The position numbers were made by a program, and so were the translations under genes. From positions 3,472,001 through 3,536,000 of the forward strand of contig OZ210885.1 in NCBI GenBank assembly GCA_964658305.1: a stretch of 64,000 nt of DNA, in the 5' to 3' direction. The stretch comes from Leptogorgia sarmentosa (lineage: Eukaryota). Below the pieces are notes generated by a model that saw only the letters and a list, made by a program, of their open reading frames with translations, was not told the origin of the DNA and ran no database searches. Shown piece by piece: positions 1,465-34,891 of the stretch (position 1 is its first letter; each line of letters opens with the position of its first letter).

Positions 1465-2751
1465 ATGGAGAAAACTATTCTTTTGTTTGCGTTTGTGCTG
1501 ATCATCTCAGCAACACTGATCGTTGGCGAAGAAGATGTCTTGAAGAAGTGAGTGTAAAATTGTTGATTTTTGTTCCTCGGGGTAAGGTAGTGAAAACAGA
1601 ACTCACCAGATTTTTTAATTGCAATTTAAGAATTTGAAACAATATTGTAATGAGGCTAATTGAGTACTGTAATAATGATAGTAACTTCGGTGTTTCTCCA
1701 AACGACATCGCAAAGTTTTCAGTTGAATCTACAACTTTTGTAACTTTTTTCCGGGTTGGCTTGATCGTGCATCGATCAAATGTGAAAATATTTTTTTATG
1801 AATAGAAAGAGTATTTATTAACTTATTAACCACTATTCGATTTACTGGAAATTGTGTTTCACATACTGAAATTTAAGTCATTCAGGGGCGTAGCCAGCCC
1901 TACAAAAGTGAGGGGGTCCATTCATCCAGTAGATCATATAGAGCTATACTGCGCATACAAATATGTCCAAACGTATTTCATGTATTTTAGGCGGGGATGT
2001 TATGAACTTGAAAATAATAAATGTTTCACAAGTGCACCATAAACAAAACAGCCTATAATGTGTGTGTATTAATCAAATAATATATTAATCAACTGTTGGG
2101 AATGCAATGGTGATTAGCCTATGAGGAGGCGTACCCGATATTCCTTATATCCGCTTTTTTACTTGATTTTGAAGGAATTGAAAGACATGTTTTGAATAAA
2201 AGTGGGGGGGTCCGGACCCCCCCCCCCATTCCCCCCCGTGGCTACGCCCCTGAAGTCATTGTTTCCCAAGCCACAATTATATAAAATTATAGATACTCAA
2301 CAGATTTACAAGACGATAAAATCGTCGATTTCCGAAAAAAAATAGAAGACAATTTTGTCATGCCTGTTGAATAATTTATTGATAAATTATTGATGTTTCA
2401 TGAGCAATGAAGTGGATCTAATGAAAAGAAAATGCTCCGTCCGTTACGGTGCGTTTAAGTAGAAAACGGCCTTAAAGCAGCACTGAACTTTACATTAAGT
2501 TTTTCAACTTTTTATTTTTTAGATCAGCTTTAAACGAAGTATTTGCTGATCTAAGATATCTGCCCAGTCGTCGACCCAGCCGAACTCCTTACTACAGAGG
2601 AGGGAGTCATGGACCCAGCCACCGTCCCAGTCGAAGGCCTCATCATCGTAGCCGTAGTCATAGCAAAGGAAGTCGTAGCCCGAGCAAAGGGTCTAAATAT
2701 GGTGGCTATCGCGGTGAATATGATGGATATCATCGTGGTGGCTACTACTAA
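1465..2751 (+). CDS. Secreted cationic Arg/Ser/His/Gly/Tyr-rich peptide precursor, paralog 1 (103 aa, 2 exons)
   Basis: Exon 1 1465-1547 (donor AA|GTGAGT) and exon 2 2523-2751 (polypyrimidine+AG acceptor) join in phase 2: MEKTILLFAFVLIISATLIVG-EEDVLKKSALNEVFAD-LRYLPSRRPSRTPYYRGGSHGPSHRPSRRPHHRSRSHSKGSRSPSKGSKYGGYRGEYDGYHRGGYY*. Hydrophobic signal peptide, TATAAAA at 1393, AATAAA at 2974, and two paralogs with the same intron position. Confidence 0.88.
1883..2252. mobile_element. hAT-like MITE in the intron of peptide paralog 1
   Basis: TIRs CAGGGGCGTAGCCA / TGGCTACGCCCCTG with a perfect 8-bp TSD AAGTCATT. Confidence 0.9.
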
Positions 2752-4191
2752 ATGTAAAGTTATATGCTGAATATATTCAACATATGGAACCTAAAATATA
2801 GTATAGTATAAATTACGTTTGGGATTTTTTTATTTATAATATATAATTGTTAGAATTCAAAGGGTATAAATGAATAGTTTCAAAGGTGCATGAATTAGTA
2901 TTGGCAATTACACGGTTCGAGAAGAATTAAGGAAAAATTGCAAGCAGTATTGATATTATTGGAGTATAAACTCAATAAACATTCATTCATAGTTAGAAAA
3001 ATTTAGTTTGTTTCAATATTGGTTATATATTCATCGTGGACTCGGAACCGTGCAATTAATTCATGATTAATTCAATCGTTTTTACCCAATCAGGGCCAAG
3101 GATATTGACAACAATGATCATGATATTAAAAAAATACCATCGTACTACTTTTCTCAATTTTTCTAGTTCCATGTTGAAGACCGCCTTTTTGCACCAAAAA
3201 TATTGATTTCATATTTATTCGCTTTCACTTCTTATAAAAAACGTTTTCAACAGAAAATATTTAGATGGGTGGCGAGGGGTGTGTGTTATTTTTAGCCTTA
3301 TCCATGCATCTGGATTATTTGACGAATTTTCCAAAATATGGAAGTCTTTCGTTTACTGATTTGTAAACTAAATTTGAAGCTATGTTTTCGTATGAAAATT
3401 TTAATAGCTAGATAAATTTCAATAATTATATTTAGTCCTATGCACCAGCCCCTACTATAGAAAAAATTACTTTTCAGTTTTCAGAAATTCACTCCTTTAC
3501 TAGTTTTTATTATTAATCATCATAATATTTTTTTCGTTTCTTTTAATGTAGGACTGAATACTCTGTGTTGCAAACGGACAAAGATATTGAGCAATGTTAG
3601 AAAAAGGACAAGTAAAAGCGTAGTAACTTCTTCTAGATAAAATAGATAAAATAGACACTGTATAACTGTGATTTTTGAACTGCTAATAAAATACAACTAA
3701 ATGTTTTCAAAAGGCATTGAATTGAGCGGGCGTTTTATTTTCTACATTAACACATTCAAAATTAACACATCGGTAATAACCACAATCATACGCTGGCGCT
3801 GTTGCATTGAGGAATTTCAGGGAATTTGCTTCAACAACTTTATTGAACAATATTCAAGCTGTGGAAACGCACCAATGATGGGAAGTGTGTGTGTTGCAAT
3901 GTTATTGCCTGAAAATAGCACTAGCATGGAAAATTACCTGAAATGATTCCTACAGGCACCTCTCCCCCTCTGTCTATTCTTTGGCCACGGCGTAGAAGAC
4001 AGTAGCAGTCGGTAGCATTTTTGAGAATTTGAGTTCTCTGGATCATCAGAAATATAGCATGCATTTTTAGGGTCTTCTTTCTATTCCGCTTTTGTTAGGT
4101 ATATTTTACCAATATTAATAAGAAACAGATTCAATGATGCAGCACTTAATCCTCTAGCAATTCATTTTTTTGACCCAATTTATGCAGCAAA

Positions 4192-5920
4192 ATAAAAGTT
4201 ATTGTCATATTGAAATGTTAAAAGCTTGATAAACATAGGAGGTCGTTTCTTGCCAGATTCCATCATATCGTTGGCGCCAGTCGAAAAAAATAATTGAAAT
4301 GATGGATTTAATTAACCCCTGAAGGTGGAATTTTTATTGTGCTAGGTAAATGTTCCACAACAAATTATAATTTGGAAAACTGAAATAATCGCTGCAATTT
4401 CTTTCAACTTCCCTGTCTTGGTTCCATCTATTCCTAAACATGAAAGATAATTATAAAGTAATTGGGTTGTAAACACACAATCGCTTCAAATTTTTGGCAA
4501 GTGAAACCTAGAATCTTACTGCATGCATCGTTTAGGTTAACCAGAAAAATTCTCCCCATACATTTAAACACTACGATGATAAAAAAGTTCAAAACGCGAG
4601 AGGATTAAATCCCCCCCTGCCTTCAGTCATATACTTAGGAAAATGTCGAAAACTAATATTAGGAGTTTAAATTTCCTGTCGTGACCAAAAGTGTTGCACA
4701 TTTATTAGAGCGCGTGCTGTACTTAACAAGGCTTCCTCTCAAAAGACTCAGGGTCTCAAACTTCAATATCAGACCAGTGTCAGTAGCAGCTTTCAACTTT
4801 GTAAGGTTTTGGTAGAAACGTTGCATAGTTAGTAAAACATGCTATTTGTGGGTTGATACTGTGGTGTGTTCGATAAGCTACAGGTAACGTTTTATGAAAT
4901 CTTGAAGAAAGCTTAATTCTGTGTCTTATTTTTAGGGTTGTATTGGCTATTTTGTTTCCTAATAATGACAATTAAAAAAGCAAGGACAATTTAAATGTGA
5001 TGTAGCTACATGCCAATACATATACACCTAAATCGGAATCGTTTCCATTCACCACCATGACATGTTGCGCTTATTACTGGACGCTGTGTTTCGTAGCCTA
5101 ATCAGGAAAGGGCGATACATATATTGTGCTAAAGCAGTTCCAGATATATAGCATAAAAAATTGAAAGATATTCGGAGTCTCCAGAAGGTTTAAAATAACA
5201 TTTTAATTGTCTTCAGGATTTTTTAAATATATCTTTATTACGATTTTAAACACCGTAATTTCTGAATTAAAATGTTTCGCAACAATTTATTTTTTAAAAT
5301 TCAATGATTGTTGTTGAGACATTGTTAGTCCGCCCTCCTGTTCATAATTTCCTGCAGTTCGAATCAAGAAAAGCTAAAATAAAAGTTGCATGGTCTCCAA
5401 AAACCTCAAACCTTGAACTCTAAGTGCGCATGGGATCTTCGGTAACTTCCTTTCAGAGCCTAAATCTCGGACATTTTACATTGCAATAATGCAAGAAAAT
5501 ATTATAACAATTGATAATAAAAGTTGTCATGAAATGTTAAAAGCGTGATAAACACAGGGGGTCGTTTCTTGCCAGATTCCATCATATCGTTGGCGCCAGT
5601 CGAAAAAAAATAATTGAAATGATGGATTTAATTAATCCCTGAAGGTGGATTTTTTATTATGCTAGGTAATTGTTCGACAACAATTTATAATTTGGAAAAC
5701 TGAAATAATCGCTGCAATTTTTTCTACTTTCCTGACTTGTTTTGCCGGGAAACAACGAATTCTATAATCTTAATAAACTGTAGAGCTTGTCTGCTGAAAG
5801 GGTTCTATCGAATTGAATTGCGGCAGTTTTTACGGTAATACAAAATGAGGTGAAATATTTTCTTAAGATTATTTTACTGTTAAGACATAAACAATAATGT
5901 CTATTCCTAAACATGAAAGC
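4192..5920. repeat. Local direct duplication (~4192-4447 vs ~5516-5920)
   Basis: Near-identical block GGTCGTTTCTTGCCAGATTCCATCATATCGTTGGCGCCAGTCGAAAAAAA...GAAATAATCGCTGCAATTT. The second copy has ~160 extra bp before the shared TCTATTCCTAAACATGAAAG. Confidence 0.85.
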
Positions 5921-6146
5921 TAGTTATAGACTAAGGAGGTCGTACAATTTTTTGCCAGGTGAAACCGGGAATCTTACCGTATCGTCTACAGTTCTTCAGG
6001 ACACAATTTATCAGATAAAAAGTATTTAGCTTTCCTGCCAAAGCTTCTTTTAATAATTCCGCACGGCTATTTACACCCGGATAAGGGACAGCAAAGCGGA
6101 GTCTGAAACCCTGGGCTCTATATCGTCTAAGGGCAATGAACTCTAA

Positions 6147-6544
6147 AGGCCCGTTCACACGGGCGATTTTTGCTGCGATTTACGGTGCGATTTCGGTCGC
6201 TCTTGGATTGCGAAGTAAAATCGCTCGTGTGAGCAGTCGACAATTTTGCTGCGATTTGCAGTTTCTAAATCGCATTGCATCGCAACCATTTCGAGTTTGC
6301 TCGAAATATTTCATGGCGATTTCAATCGAAAAACCCGTGGCATCCTGACATGTATCGCATAATGATTTTCGCGCCATTCACCGGCAAAAATAAAATCCAC
6401 GTTGTATAAAAATCGCCGGATTCGACGCTTCAAATTGCCTCGCCAGTCGCAGTGAAATCGTCAGCTGTTCACACGAGCGTTTTGAAATCGCAGCCCGTAC
6501 CCGACAATGAAATTGCACGAAAAATCGCCCGTGTGAACGGGCCT
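6147..6544. mobile_element. PIF/Harbinger-like MITE
   Basis: Perfect TIR AGGCCCGTTCACACGGGCGATTTTT, 3-bp TAA TSD and internal GCGATTT/AAATCGC repeats. Confidence 0.88.
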
Positions 6545-6588
6545 TAAAAGACCTGGAACGAGAGCTCGGCCGTCACGTTTGAAGGGAG

Positions 6589-6765
6589 AGCACATAATAA
6601 CATAGGGTCAGGCTACCTCAGGAGGTTCGTAAACTTCCGAACATGCGGCGATTGTCCCCCGATGACCCTCGACATTACCTAATGTATTAAGTATTGTATT
6701 TCCGAAGATTATTACCGAAGAACACCCGACCGTCAAGGTAGCCTGACCCTATGTTATTAAGTGCT
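6589..6765. mobile_element. Small foldback/MITE
   Basis: ~30-bp inverted termini AGCAC(A/T)TAATAACATAGGGTCAGGCTACCT. Confidence 0.7.
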
Positions 6766-7570
6766 TACCTGTTTGAAGTCGTTCATGATGGCTGTCAAGG
6801 TCGGCAGGCTTTGAATCAGCCCGCACTCAGGTGTAACAATGCTGATTGCTGAACAACATTGTTGACAACATTGAACAACGTTGGCAGCAAAACATTGTTT
6901 ATTCCTGTTTTTATCAACCCTGAACAGGTTGATCATTTTTTACCGTGCATGTTAAGAAACGTGCTACGTTGAGAACATTCCAATTCATGATTGTATATTG
7001 TCATCTAACATTTATTTGTTGGAGTGATACAGACAATACTCGATTATTTTCATCATTTATTATCTTTCGAAGAATAAAATCAGGCATTACAACGGCACTA
7101 ACGAATATTACACACTAATACTACGTACTTATAACTTCAAGATATCATGTAGATAAACTGAACTCCAGAGATATTTTGAACCAGCCTTGCCTATAAAACT
7201 GAACAATAAAAATGTTTGATTGTTAAGATGATCGTTTCACGATTATGTCTGTAATTTTTTTAAAAATGTATCATCTTTTTTTTAAAAAATATATCATTGT
7301 ATTATATTTTTTCTGTTAACAAATGTGTAGGTGAATACACTCACGCTAATGGAAACAAGTATTGCATGTCTTCCTACAAAACGCCTTTGCCGATTGCAAC
7401 ACGTAACAAAACTTGGAATGAGCAACACAGAATGCAGGTGAGCTGTCTCCACAAGCTAAAACAAACATTAAAAACGACAAATGAGTCAACTACGTACTTT
7501 GAGGTTGTTGTAGCAAATTATGTTTTAATAAATTATAATAATTTGTGTTTTAATTTACTCAACCTGATTG

Positions 7571-10500
7571 TTACGCCTTACCCAAATAAGCTCCTTTCTG
7601 TATGGATGCTGAGTTTATCCAGCGATGGTAAGCCAGATCAACTGCGCCATCTCCATTCAGTTCCACAAACCTGGCTCCAAGATCTCTGTGCCCGTCAGCA
7701 GCGATATGGAACGGTGGCGTCCACTGAGGCACAGATCTCCAACCACTGCCTGTGTTCACGTAAGCGCCCTTCTGCTGATTATGAGAGTTGATCCATCGAT
7801 GGTAAACGAAGTCAATTAATCCATCACCAGTGACATCAGCAAACCGGGCTCCCAAATCGCCATGTCCGTCAGCAGCAATATGGAAAGGAGGTATGTAGGA
7901 TGGCGTCCACGTCCAACCGTTGCCATTGTTGATGTATGCTCCCTTTTGCTGGAGATTACTGTTTATCCAACGATGATAAACCATGTCAATTCTTCGGTCA
8001 CCATTAAGATCAACGAACCGCGCTCCTAAATCACCGTGACGATCTGCAGCAATATGAAATGGTGGTGTGAATTGGGGAGCCCAGACCCATTTGTGTCCGT
8101 TATTCAGATATGCTCCCTTCTGCTGTACATGAGAGTTTATCCAACGATGATACACCATGTCCATTCGGCCGTCGCCATTCAGATCTACAAATCTGAGAGA
8201 AACAAAAAGAAGAATGACTGAGTATTTGTATGGAAAGTGAAATTGCCACATATTGATTTGTCACATGAAAATAATATACTGGATCCTAAAATTTGTTGCG
8301 ACAAACATATCAATGTCCACTACTTTAAATTGAGTCATTATACGGACTCAGATACACAAGGAAGCCGAAGGTTGGAAATCATCTCTCTTCAAAAAGGCAA
8401 ATATCGTCTTCCTGTACAGTTTAAATTTTGCTTTTTAATTTTAAGTCATTGACAAGCTCGAATTTTCAGTCTTTTTGCCTCTTAGAATTTTCTAAATTAC
8501 CTCGCTCCCAAATCGCCATGACCGTCAGCTGCAATGTGAAATGGTGGAGTAAAGAGCGGGACCGACGTCCAGCCATTTCCCGTATTAAGATAAGCGCCTT
8601 TCTGCTGTGTGTTGGAGTTTATCCAGCGGTGGAACACGAAATCAACTTTCCCGTCACCGTTCAATTCGATAAATCTTGCGCCCAAATCGCCATGCCCATC
8701 CGCTGCAATATGAAAAGGTGGTGTAAACTGGGGAGCCGATTGCCAACCATTCCCGGAATTCAAGAAAGCCCCTTTTTGTTGAGTTTTGCCGTTGATCCAT
8801 CGATGAAAGACAAAATCGATCTTTCCGTCTCCATTGAGCTCGACGAATCGTGCACCCAAGTCTCCGTGGTTATCGGCGGCGATGTGGAATGGAGGAGTGT
8901 ACTGAGGTGCTGAGACGAAGCCCACATTCGCAACATTCAGGTAGGCGCCCTTTTGGATATTGTGGTGATTAATCCATCGATGGAAAACTTGGTCCATTCT
9001 GCCATCGCCATTCAAGTCCACAAAGCGCGCCCCCAGATCCCCATGGCGATCAGCGGCAATGTGAAAGGGAGGAGTGAACTTATTAACGAACTTCCAGTTC
9101 CCTGAAAAACATTGAAATTCTGATTTTTTAGCAAAATTTAATGTGAATATATTACTCCCGCCGAATTGCACTGAGATCATCTGTCGATGTTACGAAAGCT
9201 TCCCAATGTATCTAGAAACACGCAAATATATCAAACCCCTCACCTTCTACTATAGTGGGTGTATAGTTATAGCAAGTTATCATATTAAAATGGTAACATA
9301 CTATAAATAGTATGCTTTAACCCTGATAAAGCAAAATCATATTCATTAAAACATTATTAAACAAAATTATTAGCAACTAAGAATTTACTTAAACCATTAT
9401 AAATTATTTCAGTGCATTGAAAAAATAAGTACTATTGTTATTATTATTTATTAAAAATAATTCAAGAGCCTTTTAAACGTTTTTAAACCACTGGCAGAAT
9501 CAGCGGTAATTTATCATGATTTTTGCTGGTTTTTGCAAAATCTATCATCTATGCAGAATTAAATTAATGCAGTCCCACTGAATACTTTTAATTATAAAAA
9601 CCGGACTGCTTTAGGCTGGTGTGGTACTCCAATCATTTTACTCAAAAATTCGCGTCGATATTCGTGTTCAAAATCGGTAGCATATTTTTGGACGTTTCTA
9701 AAATCTGCAAAAAACGCGATATAAAAACTGATCAAGCTTTGCTCAACGTGAGGAAATATTAAGCTAATTTATATGGTGGTCTTGAAGGCGGGTTCTTGTG
9801 TGTCCAAGAGCAGAAATCCCATGGTCTAAGTTGGCCTGCTCAAATCGTAATCCCATTTCCTATTGTTTTATTGCTGATGAATCCCAGTCCCAGTGCATGC
9901 ATGAAATCCCATTTTCCCAGCCAAAAATAAGGAAATTCCCATTTAATTTTTACCCCTCTTCAGGACCCTGATTTCACTGAGGTATCAGGTATCATTATGG
10001 TTTGAAAGTGATATAAGCGTAGATTTGGCGTATTTTTTCAAATAAACATTACTGCAGTATCTGGACAATTATCTGTTTTACCTTCTGTTCCAAAACTGTT
10101 GGATGTCGGTGGGATTATTTGTCTTATAGAGTTAGTAATGAGTATAATACACGCGACAATACAACATTCAGATCTTACAATAGCAAGATTTTTTATCGAA
10201 TTATTTATTAGGCCAATTAAACTTTTCACATTTTGGCTTTTTTTAAATAAGTCGTATAGGAGCTGAAACAGAAGGGCAGGGTGTTTCTTGACTATGGAAG
10301 AGAAAGGCGCTTAGCTTTTTAAGTGAAGGAAAACTGAAGGAGATTACGGTCTTGATGGTGCTATATCATCCCATATTCAAGGTGCATCATTGACCCACAT
10401 TCATGGTTGTATAGCGGTTGGTACCAATTTTTATGCTTCTACATACTGGCCTATGTTTAGTGTGCTATAAATCGCCCATGTTTATAGTGCTATATATTGG

Positions 10501-11556
10501 CAAACTTTTATGCGCACATATTTCTAGAACCATCTGGGCTCCCTTTTTCTTGGTATTACGTTTGTTTCTTAGTGAAGGACACAGTGGGTTTATAAGTCTT
10601 TGAGGGAGAATGTGGTGAAGGTGGAAAAATTTTAAAAATGAAAATGCGAAATACTAACCGCTCTTCGAAATTCTCTCGGACTTGCCTCGGATTAGCTTAG
10701 GCTTGCATCGGTCGGAAAGTGAGCCGGAAAAAGTAAATGAAAGTCTTTATCTGAGATGGTATGTGTTGTTTATTTATATAGGTATATTAAATTTTTGCCC
10801 ATTTTTTGTATTGGTGTAAAACTCGAGTAACATTATATTTCATCCCCAATTCTTAAGAATTCATAAATAATATGAAGATCTGCTATGAGCAATTTAAGCT
10901 ACCAGAGAAGGCATATTTTATGAGCATGCTTTGATGTAAGAAATATTAATATTCATGTTTTTGATTCAAATGGTGGTAAATATAAAACAATGTATTACGC
11001 ATTGTAAATTGCAATTTGAGTCTTTATTATCCTAAATCGTGCAGGAAATACCAAGTGAATACCAAATTTGGCACAATTCTATATACATGCAAGTGGGCAA
11101 AAATGGTTTGAGATAGCAGCGCAAATAATTATAAATCATTAGTAATTCATAGTCTGCATAATTTTTTAACAAATGTAAGCATCTCTTTATCCGCGAATTA
11201 TGATATTATCGGAAATTGGTAATAAATATTATCAGGTTTACTGGAAATATTTTCTGACGCTGGAGAAAACAGATAATTGAAAACTGAGAACAAATAGTTC
11301 GAGAAAATGTTGCAATTAATCTGCAACGTCATTGGTTCATGGACGTGCAACAGAACGCTAGTGGTCTTTGCGTCAAAATTCTGTATTCGAAAAAGCAAAA
11401 ACTTTACTAAAATTTCAGGGCGATACAGATTTACTTATAAAGGTAGATTTGGTCTTCCTGCGATGTAATAATTGTATTGTACATAATTATGAACTCACCA
11501 AGTACAAGATGCGGAACAAGGACCAAGACAAGGCACCAGCTGAAATGGAAAAACAT
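7571..11556 (-). CDS. Secreted FG-GAP/VCBS-type 7-bladed beta-propeller protein (PVL-like lectin candidate, ~426 aa)
   Basis: Exons 11556-11499 (signal peptide MFFHFSWCLVLVLVPHLVLG, G|GTGAGT), 9101-8501 (AG|GTAATT) and 8192-7571 total 1281 nt in frame. Seven ~58-aa repeats F(V)[D/E]LNGDGxxDxVxHRWINxxxQQKGAYLNxGxGW...FTPPFHIAADGHGDLGAR carry integrin-type Ca-binding DxNGDG loops. A possible extra 66-nt exon lies at 10724-10659. Confidence 0.88.
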
Positions 11557-12092
11557 CTTGAGATCAGAAGCGTGTTGTCTGCACGAGAAGCAGGACGACT
11601 ATGAAGGATTAGCCCAGAAGCTTGTTATTTTCATCAATCTAACGATTGTTTGTTCGGCTCAAGGGGGTGGGAGTTAGCATAACGACACAAACGGATGCAG
11701 ACTTTTAGTCAGTTGTGTAAGCTTCTTTCAGATTGTTCACAATTCAAATGCAAATCATGCTATTTTACTTATAATAGAGGAAACTATGAAGACATACGGC
11801 GCCAAACTGAATAAAGCAAAACTAATTAAAAAAAGTTCATAGTTATTGATTGTAAGTACTTATCAGTGATTGAGGGTCAGCCAGATAAACTGACAAATTT
11901 GATATTCCAATTAGCGGCATAGCGCCTGTAATTCGACAGAATTAGGGTCCTTAAATATTTCACGTCGAAAATGTTGGAATCTGCTCAGTAAAACAACAAT
12001 AACAAAGTCTTTTAGTTTGAAAAAAAATTACTCTGGCCAAAGAAAAAGTGAAGTAAAGGACGAGAAAATCGTTTTGAAAAAGGTTCTTTGTT

Positions 12093-14396
12093 CACAGCAA
12101 AAAATCATTTTCTCATTAAGAAAATTTTTCTTAAATTAAGAAAATGTTTTCTTAAAATAAGAAAACTATTTTCTTGATAAGAAATGTTTTTCTCAATTTG
12201 AGAAATATTTGATTTTCAAGAAAATATTTTCTTAAAATAAGGACGATTTTCTTACCAAGTTTACATTTTCTTAAAATAAGAAAATGTTTTCTTATGATTT
12301 CTCAGTCGTAAAAGTTGACTGAGAAAGATTTTTCTTAAAATAAGAAAGTTATAATTTTCTTAAGAAGAAATTATATTGCACAATATAACTGAAACATTCG
12401 AATTTCGAGAAATTTTTTTCTTTATAAAATAAGAACAATTTTCTAAATTCTAACCAAGTTTACATTGGAAAGTGAAAATTTCTTGGACGTAAAAATTGAC
12501 GAAGAAATATTTTTCTTAAAATGAGTAATCGTGTTCCTGATAAATCAGGCCTTATATTCCAGCGTAAAATGAGGAAATAAATGTTTCCATGTAATAGTAA
12601 CGATCAAGTTGTGGTATTTTTATTACCATATGATATAATAGGGCCAAAACAGAAAATTGGGGCATTTTGCCTTTTGGTTACATGCAAGAGCTATTTAGGC
12701 TTATATCTGGCCATTGATACACTGGGAAGAACATTACAAGATATGTTACTTGTAAAATCTATTTGCGTTACGGTTCGAAGTTACTATTCATGTGAAATAT
12801 ATCGAACGTCATACTGCCTTCAAAATATTAATCCTTCATTAATTGAGATCAGTAGCTATGATTTACCATATTTGGAGTGCCCATGAACCTTTGCGCACTT
12901 AATGTGAGCGCGTCCTTTTTAAATTTTGGAAATTAACGCTGTTTTGGATGTGATTATTGATACAAAATTCGACGAAAATAAAGAAGAAACTGCGGCAATT
13001 GTTCCGTATTTACACGAACTTTTGTTAGGTAAGTATTATACAATCTCAATGCTCAAATGTTATTCGAATTTACGCAGTAATAAAGCGTCTATTCACATGC
13101 ACATTGATGGCATATATGCAAAGTGTAAACATTCAATGATAAATATCAGCTGCGAAGTTTAGGCAAATTTTAGCACACTATGTTACATGATTTAACCATA
13201 TTTATACTGATTTGTGTTTTATTGTATTTACAGGCTGTTTGTGTTGAGGGGTTCTGAAGGAAAATGGTCTTTTCATGTGATATATAGTATGGCAATGTAA
13301 TATACAGTATATATTATAATGGACATTGTGGACTTCAGGAGTTGTAGTAGAATGAATCACAGGTAAATCGTTATTTTGTTTATAGATCATTATTAGTTGG
13401 CCATGTATTTGTAGAGAGATTGTAGAATAATGACAATTAATAGCTTCTAATAGTAAATAAATGACACTGACAGACCAAATATGAACCATGAGTATTTCAT
13501 GGCATTTCAATATATTAAATGCATAGCTTGATATACTAAGCCCTAAGGTGTTCAACCAAAGTCTTGCAACTGCTATTAGAAATGTTAAATTGCATAGTCA
13601 ACATCCTACTTTGCACTTTTTGATACCGATACGGTACAGGATGACTTACTTATAATTAGAACCCATGCAAATATGAACCCATGTAGGACATCATGGGTGA
13701 ACTTCTACAGTCTACTCCATGTTGTAATGTAGCTATTTTTAAAATACTGTAATGTCTTTTCATCTTAGAATGTTGCTTAACTTCATGAAGACATAAAGAA
13801 ACAAATCCTGTCCTGCCTTATAGTTGTAGCCCTTTCAAGTCGTAGCTTATGTCATACAAGAAATTCAAAACCGAAGCCATGGAATAAGTTGAACATTATT
13901 GTAGTATACTGAACTGTGTCCATTGCACAACTTAATTTAAGAAATGTATTGACATCTGAGAATTTATTACAATTTCTTGTTTCAAGGATTTTTATGTTGA
14001 AAATAATTTTCTTACTGCATGTATATTGTATATACTGATTTGTGTTGATCACTGAGAATGTATTTATTTAGCATTTCTTGTTTCAAGTATTTTTTTCTTG
14101 AAAATCATTTTCTTACTGGAAAAATCTTGTTTTAAGAAAATTTTCTTGAAATAAGAAAACTTTTTCTTGGGAGAATAACAAGAAAAAATTCTTAATAAGA
14201 AAATCTTTTCAAGAAAATTTTTTCTTATTTTGAGAATATTTTCTTAATTTTCTTATTAAGAAAATTTTCTTAAAACAGTTTTCTTATCAAGAAAATTTTC
14301 TTGTTATTCTCCCAAGAAAAAATTTTCTTATTTCAAGAAAATTTTCTTAAAACAAGTTTTTTTTTTCTTAAAATAAGAAAATTATTTTTTGCTGTG
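12093..14396. mobile_element. Non-autonomous EnSpm/CMC-like DNA transposon, 2.3 kb
   Basis: Termini CACAGCAAAAAAT / ATTTTTTGCTGTG, 2-bp TT flanks, and dense subterminal arrays of near-palindromic TTTTCTTAAAATAAGAAAA at both ends (~12110-12520, ~14075-14385). No transposase ORF. Confidence 0.8.
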
Positions 14397-22500: not shown

Positions 22501-25500
22501 CTATCCTCCACCTCGAACTATAAAATTCACAATTTATCACAGCCAAAAAAAGACGAAAGAGAGAAGACTGGGGAAAAGTAGACAAGAACACTGGTACGAG
22601 TCCGGACGGTAAAGATCAATATGGAAATACTCCAACCTCGCTGGTCGATAAGGAGAAGGATGGAAAATATGACAGTGGGGAACATGACGGAAAAAAAATT
22701 GACGTTCGGTTTGGTACTGGGTAAATATGTATCTCTATGTCCAAATTGTTAAATCCATGTAACGTCATATAATATTAATAGTAGTATCATATAATAGTAA
22801 ATGTGCGACGACTTCTAACCCTAATATTGAATTTAATTTTTCCAAATTCAAAATCAAAAGCCTTATTCTATATATACCCGCGCCCAGTTTTCAAGTGGTG
22901 CTTCTTAGGAGCGTCGCCAATGCAAAAAAAACAGAGGCCTGATATTTAACAGTACAGACCGAAAGAGCGAGGTCTATAATCCGCTTATTATATGGCTGAA
23001 TTCTAGTGAATTGAGTCTTTGAGCATAGGCTTTTCGCGCGAATTAAATCGGCTATCATCAGTTTCACTGGGTAACAGTACTGTAGACATACATGCTCAAT
23101 AAAAAACAATTTGGTTGTTTGAAAATTTTATCTGTAAATTTTAAATTGGAAAATTGAAAAAGCAAAAATCTTTTCTATTTGCAAAACGAAATTTCCTGCC
23201 AGATAAATGACATCCGGGACACAGGTGCAGATACGGAAAAACGGACCACGGTCCGGATATGGGTTTTTACGGACCGCTTGTCAACCAATCAGATTAGAGA
23301 ATTTTGAAAAGCGATATTATAACAATATTTTATATTTAAGGCTTGAAGATGAGTGGAAAAAAGATGACGATTACTACGATATATCTGATGAATATCCCGA
23401 TGCAGGAAAGATTGACAAAGAAACCAAGTTGAGAATGACGATCGAGTCTTTAATTGGTGGCGAACCTCCAGAGCATTTATCGTTGCTGGGGCATCAACAA
23501 TTTGATTTGATCAGAAACTGCACATGGAAAGGGGTAGATTGCAACACAGGGTAAGATGCATGACCTCGCGTATATCGCTATATGAGGTGGATATTACATT
23601 ATAATTAACAGTAATAACCCGGCTTGATACTAGTGATAAATGATACTAGTGATAAATAACTGTATAAACTATTGTAGTACCTTTATCGGATGGCATTCTG
23701 ATTTTTGTGCAGAAATTTAAGCCAGTTTTGGACATGGAGTTGGAATTACAGGTATGGCAATTGCTACACATTCAACAATGGTGTGGATAACAAGAAGAAT
23801 CCCATTCGGATTTTAAAATCATCGAAGCCGGGACCATCACAAGGTACTTTTCTAAATTCGAATATAATGTTTCTTAAGTATATATACAAACTCACCTTTT
23901 AATAATGGGAATTGCCATAAGATTGTTCCAAGAAACTGATATCGAGTTGTGTTTGCGCTGCTTGTTCCAGGCTTCTTGACAAGTTGTTGCAAAACTACAG
24001 TAGACTTGCTACAAGCGTGTTCTATATAAACAACTTATTTATTATTGTCTTGCAATTCAGCAACTTGTTGACAATACAGGGTTGCTGCAAGCTTGTTGCG
24101 GACACATATTGTTGACAAGTTGGGAGGATTTTTACCTGTGTAGTTCTATGGTTAAACGGTACTATAATATGTAAATAGGCACTTGTGTTAAAGTGTTTAT
24201 GACACGAAATTTTTTATTATCTTGTTTGAGAGAACTTTTAAAAGTATAATGTAAGTTCTTTTCCACTTTTTCATTTGTTTTCCTGCGACTTGAGTTATTT
24301 TAGTTTGTTTGCATTTTTCTTTGCACTCGAAGTGACGTAACGGAAGGATAACGAGCTCTCGTTTAACCTAGTTATCTTTGGCATTTCAAGCAAAAAAACA
24401 CACCAAAATCATCGCTTGACCTTTACTGTGTTGCAGTCGAACATAAACTTAATTCTAGCCGATTTAATTGGTTAAAGACAGACCTATTTGAATTTTCGAG
24501 AAATCATTATGCATACGTGACGTCACTTCGATGCAAAGAAAAATGCAAACAAACTAAAATAACTCAAGTCGCAGGAAAGAAAATGATCACTTTAATCTGA
24601 AGATATGATCTCTGTATACAGGCTTGGTTCTGCAATTCAACATTGAAGATGATGAATATATAGGTCAGCTGAGTGAAGAAGCAGGCGTGCGCGTTGTATT
24701 ACATGAACCGGGATCCACCCCTTTCCCTTTCGAAGAAGGATTCAGTATCACGCCAGGCATGGCTACGTCTGTTGGTTTGAGAAAGGTGCGAACTGCCAGT
24801 TGCAACTCTTGTTTTGCTTACACGAACTTCGAGCGACGAGTTTTTATCTGAATAATCTTGTCGACAAACGTTAGATTATCCTTGGATTGCTTACACGCTG
24901 ATCGGGCTTCGCGCATTTGGAAAACATTTCAGCAGGCAATTCGAAAAATATTGTGCGTTTTTAAGAGGATAATTTTTTCTATGTCGCGTATTTTCGATGA
25001 AATGTGTTCAAAACCCGAAATCTTTTTGGCGTCCCTCTCAAAATCAAATTATTCTATGATTATTGTCTCGACAAAACTGTTCCCTATCTTCGAAACTATG
25101 TCTGGGTATTGAGAAACTAAAAGGAATATGAAAATTATGAACATCAATGGTCGTATATAACCAGCACAACATGAATGAAGCCTTGATTTCAACAATAAAA
25201 GCCAGATTTCAAACGTAATTTTCCCTTTGGCGTACACTCCAAAATCTTTTTATTTTCGCTTTATGTCATTAATTATGAATCTATCAAGCTTTTTAAGTGA
25301 GTCTGCCGACTGAGAAACCTCAAAATTCTAAATTTATATTTCGACGAATTTGAGTTCTGAGCGCGAGATACGTGACATACAGAAAATCTTCGTCTTAAAA
25401 TATCATGTACACTTTAGATGACTGTTGACTACAAAGGCTTTAAAAGAGTTTCCCAGACTATGTTTCGACTCACTGTAATATAAAAGAAATGATTTGCTTT

Positions 25501-33046: not shown

Positions 33047-34891
33047 ATGGAGAGAACGATCCTTTTGTTTGCGTTTCTATTCATCATATCAGCAACTCTG
33101 ATCTTTGGCGAAGATGATAAAACTTTGGTAAAAAATGTCTTGAAAAAGTGAGTGTCAAATTGGTTTTTTCCGGTTAGGCAATGTTATTGAAAACAATATA
33201 GCTACAAGTTTTTTAATGTAAAAACACAACCAGACAAGATAGAGATAAAAGTTCCCGGCTGTTGACTATTGAGAAATAAAAATTCATAGAATTTCGTTAG
33301 GAGCCGTACGTACAGTCTCATCTATCAGTTCGTACGTGTATATAACTGGAAATACATACATCCGATTGATAGCGCTATTCGCCTTTTGTACAACCGGCCC
33401 AGATAATCCTCATCACGTGATTCGGTCGATTCGATATGCTCAATTCGGTCAATCGGTAATCGCTATTGGATATTCCAGTGTTTTTCAGGTCAGTGAGTGG
33501 TCCAGGCATAACACGACTTTCAATAAACTTGGCTTGGTCACAGAATAATGACGTACTGAGGTCTTTCTGTCGTACCCACTTTTTTGTGCGCATGCTCGTC
33601 AAGTTACTAGACGCGTAGATGACGACCTGATGACGACTAAATTTAAACTTACCGAGCATGCGTAGTTGATCATTTTTTGCAAGGCTGCATTAAAAAACGT
33701 GGGTACATGAAAATATCACTTTTTAATATTGAGTTAGACCTCTGCCTGATATACGCACGTGAGATGGTTTCGTCCTATCGGAAAACAAGAAAATTGAGTT
33801 TTGGCGCTTGCTATTTAACAATTCGACAACGAGGCCGAGTTGTCTAATTGTTTTAGTATACACTCTATGCCCAGAATTGTTTATATCAAGAAAATTCTTT
33901 TGAAACCTCAAGCAAAATGCTTGCGTTTTGAGTTTCTGCAGTAGCCATATTGTTTTCGGCTTTGCTTTTTCGCGAACCGTGGTCTATCACGGAATAGACA
34001 ACGGCTGAGTAGCCAATCAGAATGTAGCATTTGTAATAGACGATGGTTGGGTGTGTATTAATACATGATAGCCATATTCACCGTAACCCTAATAATCACA
34101 ATTTCTATTGCGTGGGTTTCTTTTAATTGGATTCTCTTTGTGATGTGGACGTTATCGTGGGTGGTAAAGACAAAGAGATATTTTCGGAAGCCATGGGAAC
34201 GATCGAATGGGAATACGTGGTAAAGAAAAAAAGCAATTCGTTGGGGCAAAACAACTTTACTACATGCATGCTTTGTATAAATTTGAGTTTATTCTTATGT
34301 ATATATTCGAGGTTTTAATCGTGCTTTTTATTTTCAAATGCAAAAAAAACGAGTGTTTCCTCGAAGTGTTACGTTCAATTACGAAACCTACACGACAATT
34401 TTGTAATGCTGCGTGAAAATCGTTATCGGAATTTATTTTGAAATTGATTGTTTTTTCGGTCTAGGAGCACAGAAACATTTGCACAGCATGGCCAGGGGCG
34501 CCGGAGCGACTGAAAAGCGGCGTGGGCAGGATCGTGGAAAAGGGCACTTCAGTGTCGGAGTCGAAACCCCGGGGGGAACCTCCTCCGAGACATTAAAAAA
34601 GCACTAAAACTTTACGTCTCTGAATTTTTCTATAGGTCAGCTTTGAGCAAGATATTTGCTGATTTAAAATCTTCGCCTAGTCCTCGACCCAGCAAAAGAC
34701 CGACCCACAGAAGACGAAGCCATTGCCGTTCTGAAAGTAGTTCCAGTCGTAGTCGCAGCCGTAGCCGCAGTCATAGTCGTAGCAGGCCCACTAGCAAAGA
34801 AGATAGTGAAAGTAGGAGTCGAAGCCGTAGCAAAGGACATCATGGAAACAGAACTCGTAGCCATAGCAGAGAAAATGGTGAACATGAATAG
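33047..34891 (+). CDS. Secreted RS-repeat cationic peptide precursor, paralog 2 (118 aa, 2 exons)
   Basis: Exon 1 33047-33147 (AA|GTGAGT) plus exon 2 34636-34891: MERTILLFAFLFIISATLIFG-EDDKTLVKNVLKKSALSKIFAD-LKSSPSPRPSKRPTHRRRSHCRSESSSSRSRSRSRSHSRSRPTSKEDSESRSRSRSKGHHGNRTRSHSRENGEHE*. TATAAAA at 32980. Confidence 0.88.

What the first reader, a model, noticed from the sequence alone, without database searches (positions are those of the whole stretch)
7571..11556. Stand-alone secreted, highly symmetric 7-bladed FG-GAP propeller resembling fungal PVL lectin or bacterial toxin-associated repeats
Seen: a signal peptide plus seven ~58-aa repeats with invariant HRWIN, QKGA and PPFHIAAD.H.DLGAR. 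The N-terminal half-repeat complements the truncated last repeat (velcro-type closure). There are no Cys in the repeats and only one intron inside the array, at a repeat boundary. Coding DNA is visibly more GC-rich than its flanks. Established: DxNGDGxxD loops bind Ca in integrin-alpha and Psathyrella velutina lectin propellers, and similar repeats occur in bacterial VCBS/Tc-toxin/RHS proteins. Animal integrin blades are far more divergent from each other. Inference: a multivalent lectin or His-rich metal-binding protein built by recent amplification of one blade, possibly of horizontal origin.
Basis: partly seen in the sequence, partly recalled or inferred. Interest (0 to 1): 0.75.

Follow-up and report, generated by a model that had tools for sequence, protein, structure and literature searches.

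The report
Animal seven-blade propeller of bacterial type
A spliced, transcribed animal gene encodes a signal-like peptide, seven very similar FG-GAP/VCBS propeller blades and a small six-cysteine ShK-like tail; it likely acts as a secreted many-sited binder (probably of sugars) and was probably acquired from bacteria, where near-identical blades sit inside large Tc/RHS-type toxins.

Summary
The repeats are real, but the gene model is incomplete. The gene is on the minus strand. Spliced contigs from four sequencing runs show four coding exons: 11556-11499, 9101-8501, 8192-7582 and 7455-7346. A 3'UTR exon starts at 7198. The true C-terminus is a six-cysteine ShK-like domain, below Pfam's threshold.

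The 459-aa product has a signal-like peptide, seven 58-aa FG-GAP_3 blades and this tail. AlphaFold of an 82%-identical homologue gives a confident seven-bladed propeller. Its best structural matches are the fungal GlcNAc lectins PVL, AAL2 and PAL (Z 22-23), followed by the TcB toxin propeller (Z 15).

The blades are 70-87% identical in protein, but their synonymous sites are saturated. Several blades match their positional counterparts in homologues. This points to selection, not recent amplification.

Relatives at 60% identity or more are rare. Among named organisms they occur in one ctenophore, one octocoral (51%), myxobacteria and gammaproteobacteria. They are fused to SpvB-RHS toxins, metalloproteases and beta-helix glycan enzymes.

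The tree and this distribution favour transfer from bacteria to animals. Function is inferred: a multivalent, lectin-like binder.

The parts
11499..11578 (-). Exon 1. The 5'UTR reaches at least 11578. The ATG is at 11556-11554. It encodes the signal-like peptide MFFHFSWCLVLVLVPHLVL plus one further base. The donor is GTGAGT and the intron is phase 1.
   Evidence: Sequence. Spliced contigs reach 11575-11578 and join 11498/9 to 9100/1. Splice check.
9102..11498 (-). Intron 1 (2397 nt, GT..AG, GC 0.334). It holds a short repeat-family segment near 9850-9940.
   Evidence: Joint in 4 of 4 runs; composition.
8501..9101 (-). Exon 2. It encodes the end of the signal peptide, the N-terminal 'velcro' strand (9099-9073), repeats 1-3 (9072-8548) and the start of repeat 4.
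   Evidence: Pfam FG-GAP_3 38.1 bits against a cutoff of 26.9.
8193..8500 (-). Intron 2 (308 nt, phase 2). It lies between GDLGA-R and FVDLNGDG, at the start of strand 1 of blade 4.
   Evidence: Joint 8192|8501 in 4 of 4 runs.
7582..8192 (-). Exon 3. It encodes the rest of repeat 4, repeats 5-6 and the truncated repeat 7 (7717-7583). It ends ...QKGAYL plus one base, with donor G|GTAAGG, phase 1.
   Evidence: Pfam FG-GAP_3 54.4 bits.
7456..7581 (-). Intron 3 (126 nt).
   Evidence: Joint 7455|7582 in 4 of 4 runs.
7345..7455 (-). Exon 4. It encodes a six-cysteine ShK-like domain (residues 425-459, 7453-7349) with spacing C-x7-C-x6-C-x9-C-x3-C-x2-C. The stop TAG is at 7348-7346.
   Evidence: The Pfam ShK match is the only hit (E 0.21, 12.6 bits, below the 20.9 cutoff). 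The PDB hits are all ShK-type toxins. Homologues P0004 and P0018 have the same tail.
7199..7344 (-). Intron 4, in the 3'UTR (146 nt). Its donor GTGAGT lies one base after the stop codon.
   Evidence: Contigs leave the window sequence at 7345. Their next 30 nt match 7169-7198.
7021..7198 (-). Exon 5, 3'UTR only. Its extent is estimated from the 155-178 nt of contig sequence beyond exon 4.

Best explanation
This is a spliced, transcribed minus-strand gene whose 459-residue product has a signal-like peptide, seven 58-residue FG-GAP_3/VCBS blades predicted to close into a PVL-like seven-bladed beta-propeller, and a six-cysteine ShK-like tail; it likely works as a secreted multivalent binding protein, probably a lectin.

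Shown:
- The exon structure.
- The repeats and their invariant motifs.
- The Pfam family.
- The confident propeller model of an 82%-identical homologue.
- The structural ranking: PVL/AAL2/PAL first, TcB second.
- Saturated synonymous divergence between blades.

Inferred mechanism:
- In each blade the invariant PPFHIAAD.H lies in the strand 4-to-1 connecting segment. HRWIN....QKG spans the strand 2-3 loop.
- These are the two elements that form the sugar pocket on the 'entrance' face of AAL2 and PVL.
- The protein would therefore offer seven near-equivalent pockets on one face.
- The Dx[DN]xDG-type loops between strands 1 and 2 on the other face would bind Ca and stiffen the ring.
- Strong purifying selection on every blade fits a need for all sites to work, that is, avidity for a repeated ligand.
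- The ShK-like tail would add a second, unknown contact. The channel-blocking Lys-Tyr dyad of ShK is not conserved.

Inferred origin:
- The propeller block came from bacteria, where the same blade subtype sits in SpvB-TcdB-RHS toxins, metalloproteases and beta-helix glycan enzymes.
- In the animal it is flanked on both sides by phase-1 introns, between a signal-peptide exon and a ShK-like exon.
For: Gene model:
- Joints 7455|7582, 8192|8501 and 9100/1|11498/9 are seen in 4 of 4 runs laid, from 3 studies. All are GT..AG on the minus strand, and there is no intron cover.
- Translation gives 459 aa.

Family: FG-GAP_3 is above the gathering score in both repeat exons.

Fold, using proxy P0004:
- pLDDT 85.3, pTM 0.81, seven four-stranded blades.
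- Foldseek top hits are AAL2 and PVL at E 6e-12 to 6e-11.
- VIA Z is 22.3-22.9 for PVL/AAL2/PAL, 14.3-15.2 for TcB, and 14 or less for the rest.

Pocket logic:
- DSSP of the model maps PPFHIAAD and HRWIN..QK to those elements.

Selection:
- Blade core identity is 70-87% in protein but 63-79% in DNA.
- dS is saturated in 18 of 21 pairs.
- Blades show positional orthology with homologues.

Module use elsewhere:
- M57 protease fusion P0016, and beta-helix/GH141 fusions P0007, P0014, P0015 and P0021.
- Astacin plus seven blades plus the same Cys tail in P0018.
- SpvB-propeller-TcdB_midN-RHS-CHAP in P0205, at 71% identity.

Origin:
- Only 2 named animal species appear among the 120 rows listed (of 224 hits) and the 45.
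- Identity to Myxococcus P0013 is 66%.
- The window row sits in a 97* clade of 15 rows. Myxococcus is sister to it, and SpvB/RHS proteins lie deeper under a midpoint root.
- Holding the 14 putative animal rows as one clade is not rejected (p-AU 0.60).
Against: - No binding data exist.
- The PVL/AAL2 sugar-contact residues (Asn/Asp, Gly-Gly-Trp, His) are not recognisably present, and a profile search of PDB sequences did not find PVL. Ligand type is therefore a guess.
- The fold was computed on a homologue, not on the window's own spliced protein.
- I had no model coordinates, so pocket geometry rests on strand topology alone.
- Only 2 of 7 Ca loops are strictly canonical.
- In Tc toxins the homologous propeller docks on a protein (TcA), not a glycan.
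- The tree is unrooted, and one Polyangiaceae protein (P0028, long branch) falls inside the 'animal' clade.
- The AU group was named after the tree had been seen.
- The ShK assignment is below Pfam's cutoff. Two fold attempts on the tail were uninformative.
- The signal peptide was judged by eye, with no predictor.
Confidence: 0.55

Rival explanations
1. The propeller is a protein-docking module, as in Tc toxins where the TcB propeller seats on TcA. In the animal it would be a venom or toxin accessory that binds a protein target or partner, with the ShK-like tail aimed at an ion channel.
For: - The nearest sequence-level solved relatives are YenB (TcB; E 0.037) and CRTAC1.
- The TcB propeller is the second-best fold class (Z about 15).
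- The closest bacterial holders are SpvB-TcdB_midN-RHS toxins: P0205 at 71% identity, the L001 giant ORF, and P0010.
- 86 of the best 150 representatives are 1500 aa or longer.
- The only family matched by the tail is ShK toxins.
Against: - No SpvB, TcdB_midN or RHS part is present in the 459-aa protein.
- Seven equally conserved blades fit a repeated small ligand better than a single asymmetric protein interface.
- The same blades are appended to glycan-active beta-helix/GH141 enzymes and to proteases, like a binding module.
- The ShK Lys-Tyr dyad aligns to Gln-Ser. The dyad's role is recalled, not tested.
- PVL-type lectins are a far better fold match (Z 22-23 against 15).
Confidence: 0.2
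2. It is a His-rich metal-binding or metal-dependent protein. The three invariant His per blade (PPFH, D.H, HRW) would chelate Zn, Cu or Ni at seven sites, for storage, sequestration or catalysis.
For: - His makes up 28 of 439 mature residues (6.4%), with three invariant His per blade.
- VCBS loops can bind other cations (PMC8023676, passages read).
- Copper radical oxidases appear among the fold hits (Z about 14).
Against: - No geometry is available to show that the three His converge.
- A seven-fold repeated catalytic site is not known for this fold class.
- His is also a pocket-lining residue in AAL2/PVL sugar sites.
- The galactose-oxidase hits share only the generic seven-blade ring (8-12% identity).
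Confidence: 0.08
3. The gene is ancient and vertically inherited in animals, with wide loss. Under this view the myxobacterial and gammaproteobacterial copies were acquired from animals, or are convergent.
For: - Both ctenophore and cnidarian lineages have the gene.
- The putative animal rows can form one clade.
- The tree is unrooted.
- The gene has four introns and host-like flanking exons.
Against: - The bacterial and archaeal side is far more diverse in sequence (15-110 bits per blade) and in architecture.
- Bacterial and archaeal relatives make up most of the 2687 representatives at E<=1e-3.
- Named animals number only 2 species.
- 62-66% identity across domains is too high for descent from a common cellular ancestor.
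Confidence: 0.1
4. The symmetry reflects a recent amplification of one blade, or ongoing gene conversion.
For: - High blade identity: 74% over full blades 2-6, 78% over the core.
- Relatives P0001, P0002, P0003 and L001 do have 92-96% identical blades.
- Pereira and Lupas describe such amplifications as common (PMC9218822, passages read).
Against: - In the window gene, dS is undefined or at least 1.8 in all 21 blade pairs.
- Only 37% of conserved degenerate residues share the same codon.
- DNA repeat identity is 66-74%.
- Blades 1, 6 and 7 pair best with the same-numbered blades of P0004, P0005 and P0006, and blade 4 with those of P0005 and P0006.
Confidence: 0.03
5. The locus is bacterial contamination or an assembly artefact.
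For: High identity to bacterial proteins; exons richer in GC than the surroundings.
Against: - Four GT..AG introns are confirmed by spliced contigs in four runs.
- The signal-peptide and Cys-rich exons are of eukaryote type.
- The gene is embedded in 64 kb of AT-rich DNA that carries other intron-split ORFs.
Confidence: 0.01

Closest known systems
Fungal PVL-type lectins (Psathyrella velutina PVL, Agrocybe aegerita AAL2, P. asperospora PAL)
   Same: - A single-domain propeller of about 400 aa with seven blades of about 56-58 aa.
- The sequence repeat is shifted by one strand relative to the blade, giving velcro closure.
- A Dx[DN]xDG Ca loop lies between strands 1 and 2.
- These are the best structural matches (Z 22-23, rmsd 3.5-3.7 A, 335-339 residues).
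[quoted passage not shown]
   Different: - Only 16-18% identity, and not found by a profile search of PDB sequences.
- The sugar-contact residues differ.
- PVL and AAL2 are cytoplasmic fungal proteins without a signal peptide or a Cys-rich tail (recalled).
- The blades here are much more alike (74-78%) and belong to a subtype shared with bacterial toxins.
Beta-propeller of the TcB subunit of ABC (Tc) toxins and related SpvB-RHS polymorphic toxins
   Same: - Same Pfam family (FG-GAP_3/VCBS), with sub-threshold TcdB_toxin_midN hits in the pieces.
- YenB is the closest toxin sequence in the PDB (E 0.037).
- Fold Z is 14-15.
- Bacterial SpvB-propeller-TcdB_midN-RHS proteins carry seven blades 63-71% identical to the window's (L001, P0205, P0010).
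   Different: - The window protein has no SpvB, TcdB_midN, RHS shell or toxic payload.
- It is a small secreted protein with introns and a ShK-like tail.
- The solved TcB propellers are divergent and asymmetric, and they dock on TcA.
Tachylectin-2-like symmetric propeller lectins (arthropods, cnidarians)
   Same: They are VCBS-related, highly symmetric, multivalent GlcNAc-binding propellers used in invertebrate innate immunity. Highly repetitive members are reported from Cnidaria and Actinobacteria (PMC9218822 and PMC8023676; passages read).
   Different: Tachylectin-2 is five-bladed with a different blade motif. It did not appear among the listed fold matches.
ShKT (ShK toxin-like) domains appended to secreted cnidarian proteins such as astacins
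   Same: - A C-terminal module of about 35 aa with six Cys, ending FCRKTCxTC like ShK.
- ShK, BgK, Aer3a and aurelin fill the top 8 of 10 PDB sequence hits at E<=10.
- Homologue P0018 is an astacin plus seven blades plus the same tail.
   Different: - The Pfam ShK score is 12.6 bits, below the 20.9 cutoff.
- The Lys-Tyr dyad is not conserved.
- The fold is not confirmed.
- That astacin-ShKT combinations are typical of cnidarians is recalled, not tested.
Integrin alpha and CRTAC1 FG-GAP propellers
   Same: Seven-bladed FG-GAP/VCBS-type ring with Ca loops. CRTAC1 is the best PDB sequence hit (E 0.016). Integrin alpha chains appear among Foldseek hits at E 1e-7 to 1e-6.
   Different: Pfam FG-GAP (PF01839) is below its cutoff in both pieces, reported only for the second (14.6 bits against 22.1). 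There are no thigh/calf, EGF or TM parts. The animal blades of integrins are highly divergent from each other.

Membership tests
VCBS / FG-GAP_3 beta-propellers (Pfam PF13517) | Pfam model match at or above the gathering score | tested here: met
   38.1 bits (exon 2 piece) and 54.4 bits (exon 3 piece) against a cutoff of 26.9.
VCBS / FG-GAP_3 beta-propellers (Pfam PF13517) | Seven four-stranded blades closing into a ring | tested here: met
   AlphaFold model of homologue P0004 (82% identical): pLDDT 85.3, pTM 0.81, seven blades by DSSP. All top fold hits are seven-bladed VCBS propellers. This was not run on the window's own spliced protein.
VCBS / FG-GAP_3 beta-propellers (Pfam PF13517) | Dx[DN]xDG cation-binding loop between strands 1 and 2 | tested here: met
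   Strictly canonical in blades 1 and 4. Blades 2, 3, 5, 6 and 7 each have one deviation (E at position 1, R at position 6, or T at position 3). Ca binding itself is untested.
PVL-type fungal GlcNAc lectins | Overall structural similarity to PVL/AAL2/PAL | tested here: met
   Z 22.3-22.9, rmsd 3.5-3.7 A, 335-339 residues. The next class scores Z 15.
PVL-type fungal GlcNAc lectins | Detectable sequence homology to PVL/AAL2 | tested here: not met
   A profile of alignment A1 against all PDB sequences at E<=1 returned 4 sequences (CRTAC1 and three YenB entries). PVL and AAL2 were not among them.
PVL-type fungal GlcNAc lectins | Sugar-contact residues: Asn/Asp at the start of the connecting segment, Gly-Gly-Trp, His, and the 2-3 loop backbone (PMC4483166) | tested here: inconclusive
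   The connecting segment here reads APQ[FY]TPPFHIAAD.H, and the 2-3 loop is flanked by HRW and QKG. The same structural elements are involved, but no residue-level superposition was available.
PVL-type fungal GlcNAc lectins | Binding of terminal GlcNAc or sialic acid | not testable with these tools
   Needs a glycan array or ITC.
TcB / SpvB-RHS (ABC toxin B-C) proteins | N-terminal SpvB domain | tested here: not met
   No SpvB hit in either repeat piece. The whole product is 459 aa with a signal peptide directly before the blades.
TcB / SpvB-RHS (ABC toxin B-C) proteins | TcdB middle region and RHS/YD shell | tested here: not met
   TcdB_toxin_midN scores only 14.7-15.5 bits against a cutoff of 24.8, on blade loops. 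There is no RHS.
TcB / SpvB-RHS (ABC toxin B-C) proteins | Propeller homologous to the TcB propeller | tested here: met
   YenB E 0.037. Z 14.3-15.2 to TcdB chains, covering residues 377-703. SpvB-RHS proteins P0205 (71% identity) and L001 hold the same blades.
ShKT domain (Pfam PF01549) | Six cysteines in ShK-like spacing, with a C-terminal CxxxCxxC | tested here: met
   Spacing is C-x7-C-x6-C-x9-C-x3-C-x2-C, ending FCRKTCNTC. It is conserved in P0004 and P0018.
ShKT domain (Pfam PF01549) | Pfam score at or above the gathering score | tested here: not met
   12.6 bits, E 0.21, against a cutoff of 20.9. It was the only family reported at E<=10. I therefore call the domain 'ShK-like', not a member.
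ShKT domain (Pfam PF01549) | ShK fold (short helices held by three disulfides) | tested here: inconclusive
   The tail has pLDDT 30-38 in the full model. A single-sequence model gave beta-strands at pLDDT 78, with no PDB match at E<=0.001.
Integrin-alpha type FG-GAP repeat (Pfam PF01839) | Pfam score at or above the gathering score | tested here: not met
   14.6 bits against a cutoff of 22.1 in the exon 3 piece. Nothing was reported in the exon 2 piece.

The most novel reading that the evidence does not exclude
An early-branching marine animal lineage captured the seven-bladed propeller of a bacterial Tc/RHS-type toxin. It wired the propeller between a host signal-peptide exon and a ShK-like exon, and in a paralogous lineage behind an astacin protease. 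It has since kept all seven blades near-identical by selection alone, long enough to saturate synonymous sites. The result would be a new class of animal pattern-recognition or venom lectin with seven working sites. This would show that extreme propeller symmetry can be maintained by function rather than by recent amplification.
Probability: 0.35. Interest if true: 0.75.

Novelty: new variant of a known kind. Interest (0 to 1): 0.55.

Why it matters
First, highly symmetric propellers are usually read as freshly amplified. In the 2022 survey by Pereira and Lupas, the highly repetitive VCBS and FG-GAP propellers came only from bacteria and archaea (PMC9218822, passages read). This gene is an animal example with 74-78% blade identity whose synonymous sites are saturated. 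The symmetry is therefore held by purifying selection, which implies that every blade carries a working site.

Second, the gene links a module of bacterial Tc/RHS toxins, proteases and glycan enzymes to secreted proteins of ctenophores and cnidarian-like animals. It looks like domain capture by horizontal transfer followed by exon shuffling with ShK-like and astacin parts.

Third, it offers a compact, probably seven-valent binding scaffold of unknown specificity that can be tested directly by expression and glycan arrays.

I found no description of this animal family in five full-text searches. The proteins carry a precomputed Pfam accession, PF27309, which is not in the local Pfam copy and whose name I could not see. 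No paper mentions it. The repeat may therefore already be curated.

Tried and rejected
- The window's own genome is not held, so paralogues could not be counted.
- Earlier findings of this scan returned nothing by place, sequence or words.
- The look-up of sequencing runs listed no RNA holder. The four runs laid are of unrecorded or guessed kind, and X12 is guessed to be 'DNA?'. They cover only exons and carry the spliced form, so I read them as RNA-derived. A processed DNA copy is not formally excluded for X12.
- An attempt to place the organism using an unrelated ORF (23207-23551) gave a single 204-aa hit with no name. The taxon stays inferred.
- ESM Atlas scores were 0.78-0.81, below the 0.9 lead level. 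One Cnidaria-labelled and one Myxococcota-labelled FG-GAP cluster appeared, as leads only.
- Folding the ShK-like tail alone gave a beta-strand model with no PDB match, which is uninformative.
- A profile of three tails against the PDB gave E-values of 1.2-4.5, not significant singly.
- Rfam found nothing in 4000-13000.
- tblastn of the protein against the window found no second copy.
- The roughly 250-aa N-terminal domain of the ctenophore-type relatives had no PDB sequence match and only a weak DivIC hit in Pfam.
The bacterial census is therefore not exhaustive.
- I considered and rejected an integrin-alpha relationship (no Pfam FG-GAP score above cutoff), contamination, and recent amplification.

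Full report
**Observation**

The repeats are real and lie on the minus strand.
- Two long stop-to-stop frames (8497-9189 and 7571-8260) carry the motif series.
- DNA repeat finding shows a 174-nt period at 66-74% identity.
- Both repeat pieces match Pfam FG-GAP_3 (PF13517) above the gathering score: 38.1 and 54.4 bits against 26.9.
- An ATG at 11556 opens a short hydrophobic exon that ends in GTGAGT.

**Gene model**

- The codons ...QKGAYL are followed by G|GTAAGG.
- A homologue from a transcript-sized contig (P0004, 467 aa) continues after QKGAYL with a six-cysteine tail.
- Contigs of four public runs from three studies were laid on 7200-11700. They join 7455 to 7582, 8192 to 8501 and 9100/1 to 11498/9. 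Every joint is GT..AG on the minus strand, and none of these contigs covers the introns.
- The contigs leave the sequence at 7345. Their next 30 nt match 7169-7198, so a fourth intron sits in the 3'UTR one base after the TAG.
- The run kinds are unrecorded or guessed. I read them as RNA-derived because only exons are covered.
- Spliced in a script, the CDS is 1380 nt including the stop, giving 459 aa.
- The introns flanking the propeller block (exons 2 and 3) are both phase 1. The internal intron is phase 2.

**The protein**

- Residues 1-20 are signal-like. This was judged by eye, as no predictor was available.
- Residues 21-29 (NWKFVNKFT) correspond to the last strand of a blade.
- Seven repeats start at residues 30, 89, 147, 205, 263, 321 and 379, with a 58-aa period (59 for the first). 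The seventh stops after strand 3.
- A 35-residue module with spacing C-x7-C-x6-C-x9-C-x3-C-x2-C follows.
- 27 of 46 core columns are invariant across the seven blades.
- His makes up 6.4% of the mature chain.
- The only Cys outside the tail is in the signal peptide.
- Ca-type loops are strictly canonical in 2 of 7 blades and one residue off in the other 5.
- No second copy lies in the window.

**Age of the blades**

- On the 46-aa core, the 21 blade pairs are 70-87% identical in protein (mean 78%) but 63-79% in DNA (mean 69%).
- Only 37% of conserved degenerate residues use the same codon.
- Nei-Gojobori dS is undefined (saturated) in 18 pairs and 1.8-2.2 in the other 3. dN is 0.08-0.26.
- Window blades 1, 6 and 7 are most similar to the same-numbered blades of the close homologues P0004, P0005 and P0006 (85-96%), and blade 4 to those of P0005 and P0006. 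The best match is positional for 4, 5 and 5 of the 7 blades respectively.
- The seven-blade array is therefore older than these gene splits and is held similar by purifying selection.
- Ctenophore-type relatives (P0001, P0003), P0002 and a gammaproteobacterial protein (L001) differ. Their blades are 92-96% identical, so amplification or homogenisation does happen elsewhere in the family.

**Fold**

Spliced sequences cannot be handed to the folding tool, so I folded P0004 with a 14-row alignment (A1). P0004 is 82% identical over exon 3.
- The model has pLDDT 85.3 and pTM 0.81, with seven four-stranded blades. An N-terminal strand precedes the first blade, and the last blade has three strands. 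The tail is unresolved, with pLDDT 30-38.
- Foldseek ranks AAL2, PVL and PAL first (E 6e-12 to 8e-10). TcdB chains, CRTAC1, UmbA4 and integrin alpha follow.
- VIA-align gives Z 22.3-22.9 (rmsd 3.5-3.7 A, 335-339 residues, 16-18% identity) for the PVL group.
- The same run gives Z 14.3-15.2 for TcB propellers and 14 or less for galactose oxidases, Photorhabdus lectins and others.
- At the sequence level, a profile search of the PDB finds only CRTAC1 (E 0.016) and YenB (E 0.037-0.038), not PVL.
- Pereira and Lupas group PVL, TcB and aldos-2-ulose dehydratase propellers in the VCBS family (PMC8023676, passages read). That grouping matches the hit list.

**Where the invariant motifs sit**

This part is inferred.
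- I mapped the DSSP strings of the model onto the P0004 sequence.
- Strand 1 is ARFV. The Ca loop follows. Strand 2 is D-x-V-[FY]-HRW. Strand 3 is QKGAYLN. Strand 4 is GW-x-x.
- Hence HRWIN....QKG brackets the 2-3 loop, and APQ[FY]TPPFHIAAD.HGDLG is the 4-to-1 connecting segment.
[quoted passage not shown] They use Asn/Asp, Gly-Gly-Trp and His from the connecting segment and the backbone of the 2-3 loop (PMC4483166, passages read).
- The same two elements are the invariant parts here, but with different residues.
- I therefore predict seven equivalent pockets on one face. I cannot name the ligand.

**The tail**

- Pfam reports only ShK, below threshold (E 0.21, 12.6 bits against 20.9).
- phmmer against the PDB finds only ShK-type toxins (E 0.36-0.82), sharing FCRKTCxTC.
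- A three-sequence profile of the tails of the window protein, P0004 and P0018 lists ShK, BgK, Hui1, Aer3a and aurelin as 8 of its 10 hits at E<=10. None is significant alone.
- The ShK Lys-Tyr pair aligns to Gln-Ser. The importance of that pair is recalled, not tested.
- A single-sequence fold gave beta-strands and no PDB match.
- I therefore call the tail 'ShK-like'.

**Relatives and architecture**

*Database searches*
- With exon 3 as query against longer proteins, 224 proteins pass E<=0.001 and 120 are listed.
- The rows with animal names are Mnemiopsis leidyi (75%) and Dendronephthya gigantea (51%). A further Mnemiopsis member appears.
- Named bacteria include Myxococcus landrumensis (a 443-aa stand-alone protein with seven blades, 66%) and Cystobacter fuscus (M57 protease plus blades, 62%). 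They also include a Bathymodiolus gill symbiont (SpvB plus blades, 66%), Limnobacter, and many TcdB/RHS proteins at 30-45%.
- In the 110-350 aa range, 45 proteins pass. Four carry organism names (Archangium, Cystobacter, Hyalangium and an uncultured gammaproteobacterium), and none is an animal.

*Genome and representative scans*
- Among one genome per prokaryote species, 2 of the 80 kept loci reach 60% or more: a gammaproteobacterial MAG at 63% and Archangium at 70%. The next best is 38%.
- An exhaustive HMMER scan of 1.84 billion representatives gives 2687, 1202 and 329 proteins at E<=1e-3, 1e-10 and 1e-30.
- Of the best 150, 8 are 60% or more identical. By length, 86 are 1500 aa or longer, and 9 carry three or more PPFH or HRW motifs.

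*Architectures*
- The best hit, P0205 (71%, 2358 aa), is SpvB, seven blades, TcdB_midN, RHS repeats and CHAP.
- L001 is a giant open frame with seven near-identical blades.
- Other fusions are beta-helix/GH141 (P0007, P0014, P0015, P0021) and astacin plus seven blades plus the same Cys tail (P0018).
- A blade HMM scores 110-126 bits per blade in the animal-type proteins. It scores about 100 in Myxococcus and the symbiont, and falls steadily to 15-30 in ordinary TcB/RHS proteins.

**Tree**

- From the 123 proteins scanned, I chose 35 with exactly seven detected blades, spanning the score range and the architectures. All others were left out.
- IQ-TREE was run in quick mode on 403 columns.
- It puts the window row in a starred clade (97) of 15 rows. 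These are the window group, P0018, Dendronephthya, the ctenophore-type proteins, P0002, and one Polyangiaceae protein on a long branch.
- Myxococcus is sister to this clade (support 94). The gammaproteobacterial, Limnobacter and beta-helix proteins come next.
- SpvB/RHS proteins lie on the far side of a midpoint root.
- Holding the 14 putative animal rows together, without the Polyangiaceae row, gives a slightly better likelihood (+3.06) and is not rejected (p-AU 0.60). That group was named after I had seen the tree.
- The root is not inferred, and most 'animal' labels rest on architecture, not on names.

Three things favour transfer from bacteria into animals, possibly once: the tree, 62-66% identity across domains, and only two named animal species. 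Composition adds weak support. The CDS has GC3 0.478, against 0.28-0.42 in seven other putative coding ORFs of the window, which include some intron sequence.

**Organism**

- GT..AG introns and the other intron-split ORFs in the window indicate a eukaryote. Those ORFs resemble receptor tyrosine phosphatase, FN3, SRCR and SUEL-lectin exons, but I recognised them by eye and did not test them.
- The ShK-like tail, the astacin paralogue and the nearest named relatives suggest a cnidarian or another non-bilaterian marine animal. This is inference.

**Literature**

- Five full-text searches found no description of this animal family.
- Pereira and Lupas (2022) report that, among highly repetitive propellers, VCBS members occur only in bacteria and FG-GAP members only in archaea and bacteria. 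Tachylectin-like members occur in Actinobacteria and Cnidaria (PMC9218822, passages read).
- The proteins carry a precomputed accession, PF27309, that is absent from the local Pfam copy. No paper cites it, and I could not see what it describes.

**Verdict**

The PVL-like fold and a foreign origin are supported. Recent amplification is not. Function remains inferred, and the most likely role is a secreted, Ca-stabilised, seven-site lectin-like binder with a ShK-like appendage.

Noticed in passing
window 5900-6950: A GC-rich stretch (0.43-0.49) without long ORFs. It holds nested inverted repeats: 6141-6181/6510-6550 (88%), 6209-6259/6442-6492 (76%) and 6589-6618/6736-6765 (97%). It looks like foldback or MITE-type elements just downstream of the gene's 3' end.
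   Followed up: no
window 12078-12366: An AT-rich array of units about 20 nt long (AAGAAAAT.TTTTCTTAAAATAAG-like, partly palindromic), about 500 bp upstream of the gene's first exon.
   Followed up: no
window 9850-9940 (intron 1): A short segment covered by many unrelated contigs with loose ends on both sides in all four runs. It is probably a dispersed repeat family.
   Followed up: no
window 43558-59310, minus strand: A run of intron-split ORFs that by eye resemble one large receptor-type gene: tyrosine phosphatase catalytic (43558-43917), FN3-like (53104-54561), SRCR-like (56523-56945), SUEL/Gal-lectin-like (57236-57577) and a Cys-rich lectin-like exon (58855-59310). No tool was run on them.
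   Followed up: no
window 2476-2751 and 34514-34891, plus strand: Two ORFs about 32 kb apart share a start motif (..FADL[RK]..P S.RPS.RP..) followed by Arg/Ser/His-rich low-complexity tails. They may be paralogous exons.
   Followed up: no
proteins P0001, P0003, P0008, P0009, P0012, P0022 (relatives, not in the window): Ctenophore-type relatives carry an unknown N-terminal domain of about 250 aa (a hydrophobic stretch plus a coiled-coil-like QKLAELKKINKKLDKLQ segment) before seven blades, and a C-terminal ...ETC/..C end. The domain has no Pfam or PDB match. Their blades are 92-96% identical, unlike the window gene.
   Followed up: partly
L003 2830-3348 (Archangium sp. MAG): A 172-aa ORF with a signal-like start and only two blades of the same subtype, next to a contig end. 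It is either a fragment or a short protein that would have to oligomerise to form a ring.
   Followed up: no
protein P0018 (718 aa): A signal peptide, an astacin protease (191.5 bits), seven blades of this subtype and the same six-Cys tail. It groups with the window protein in the tree, which suggests the propeller-plus-tail cassette is reused as a targeting module.
   Followed up: partly
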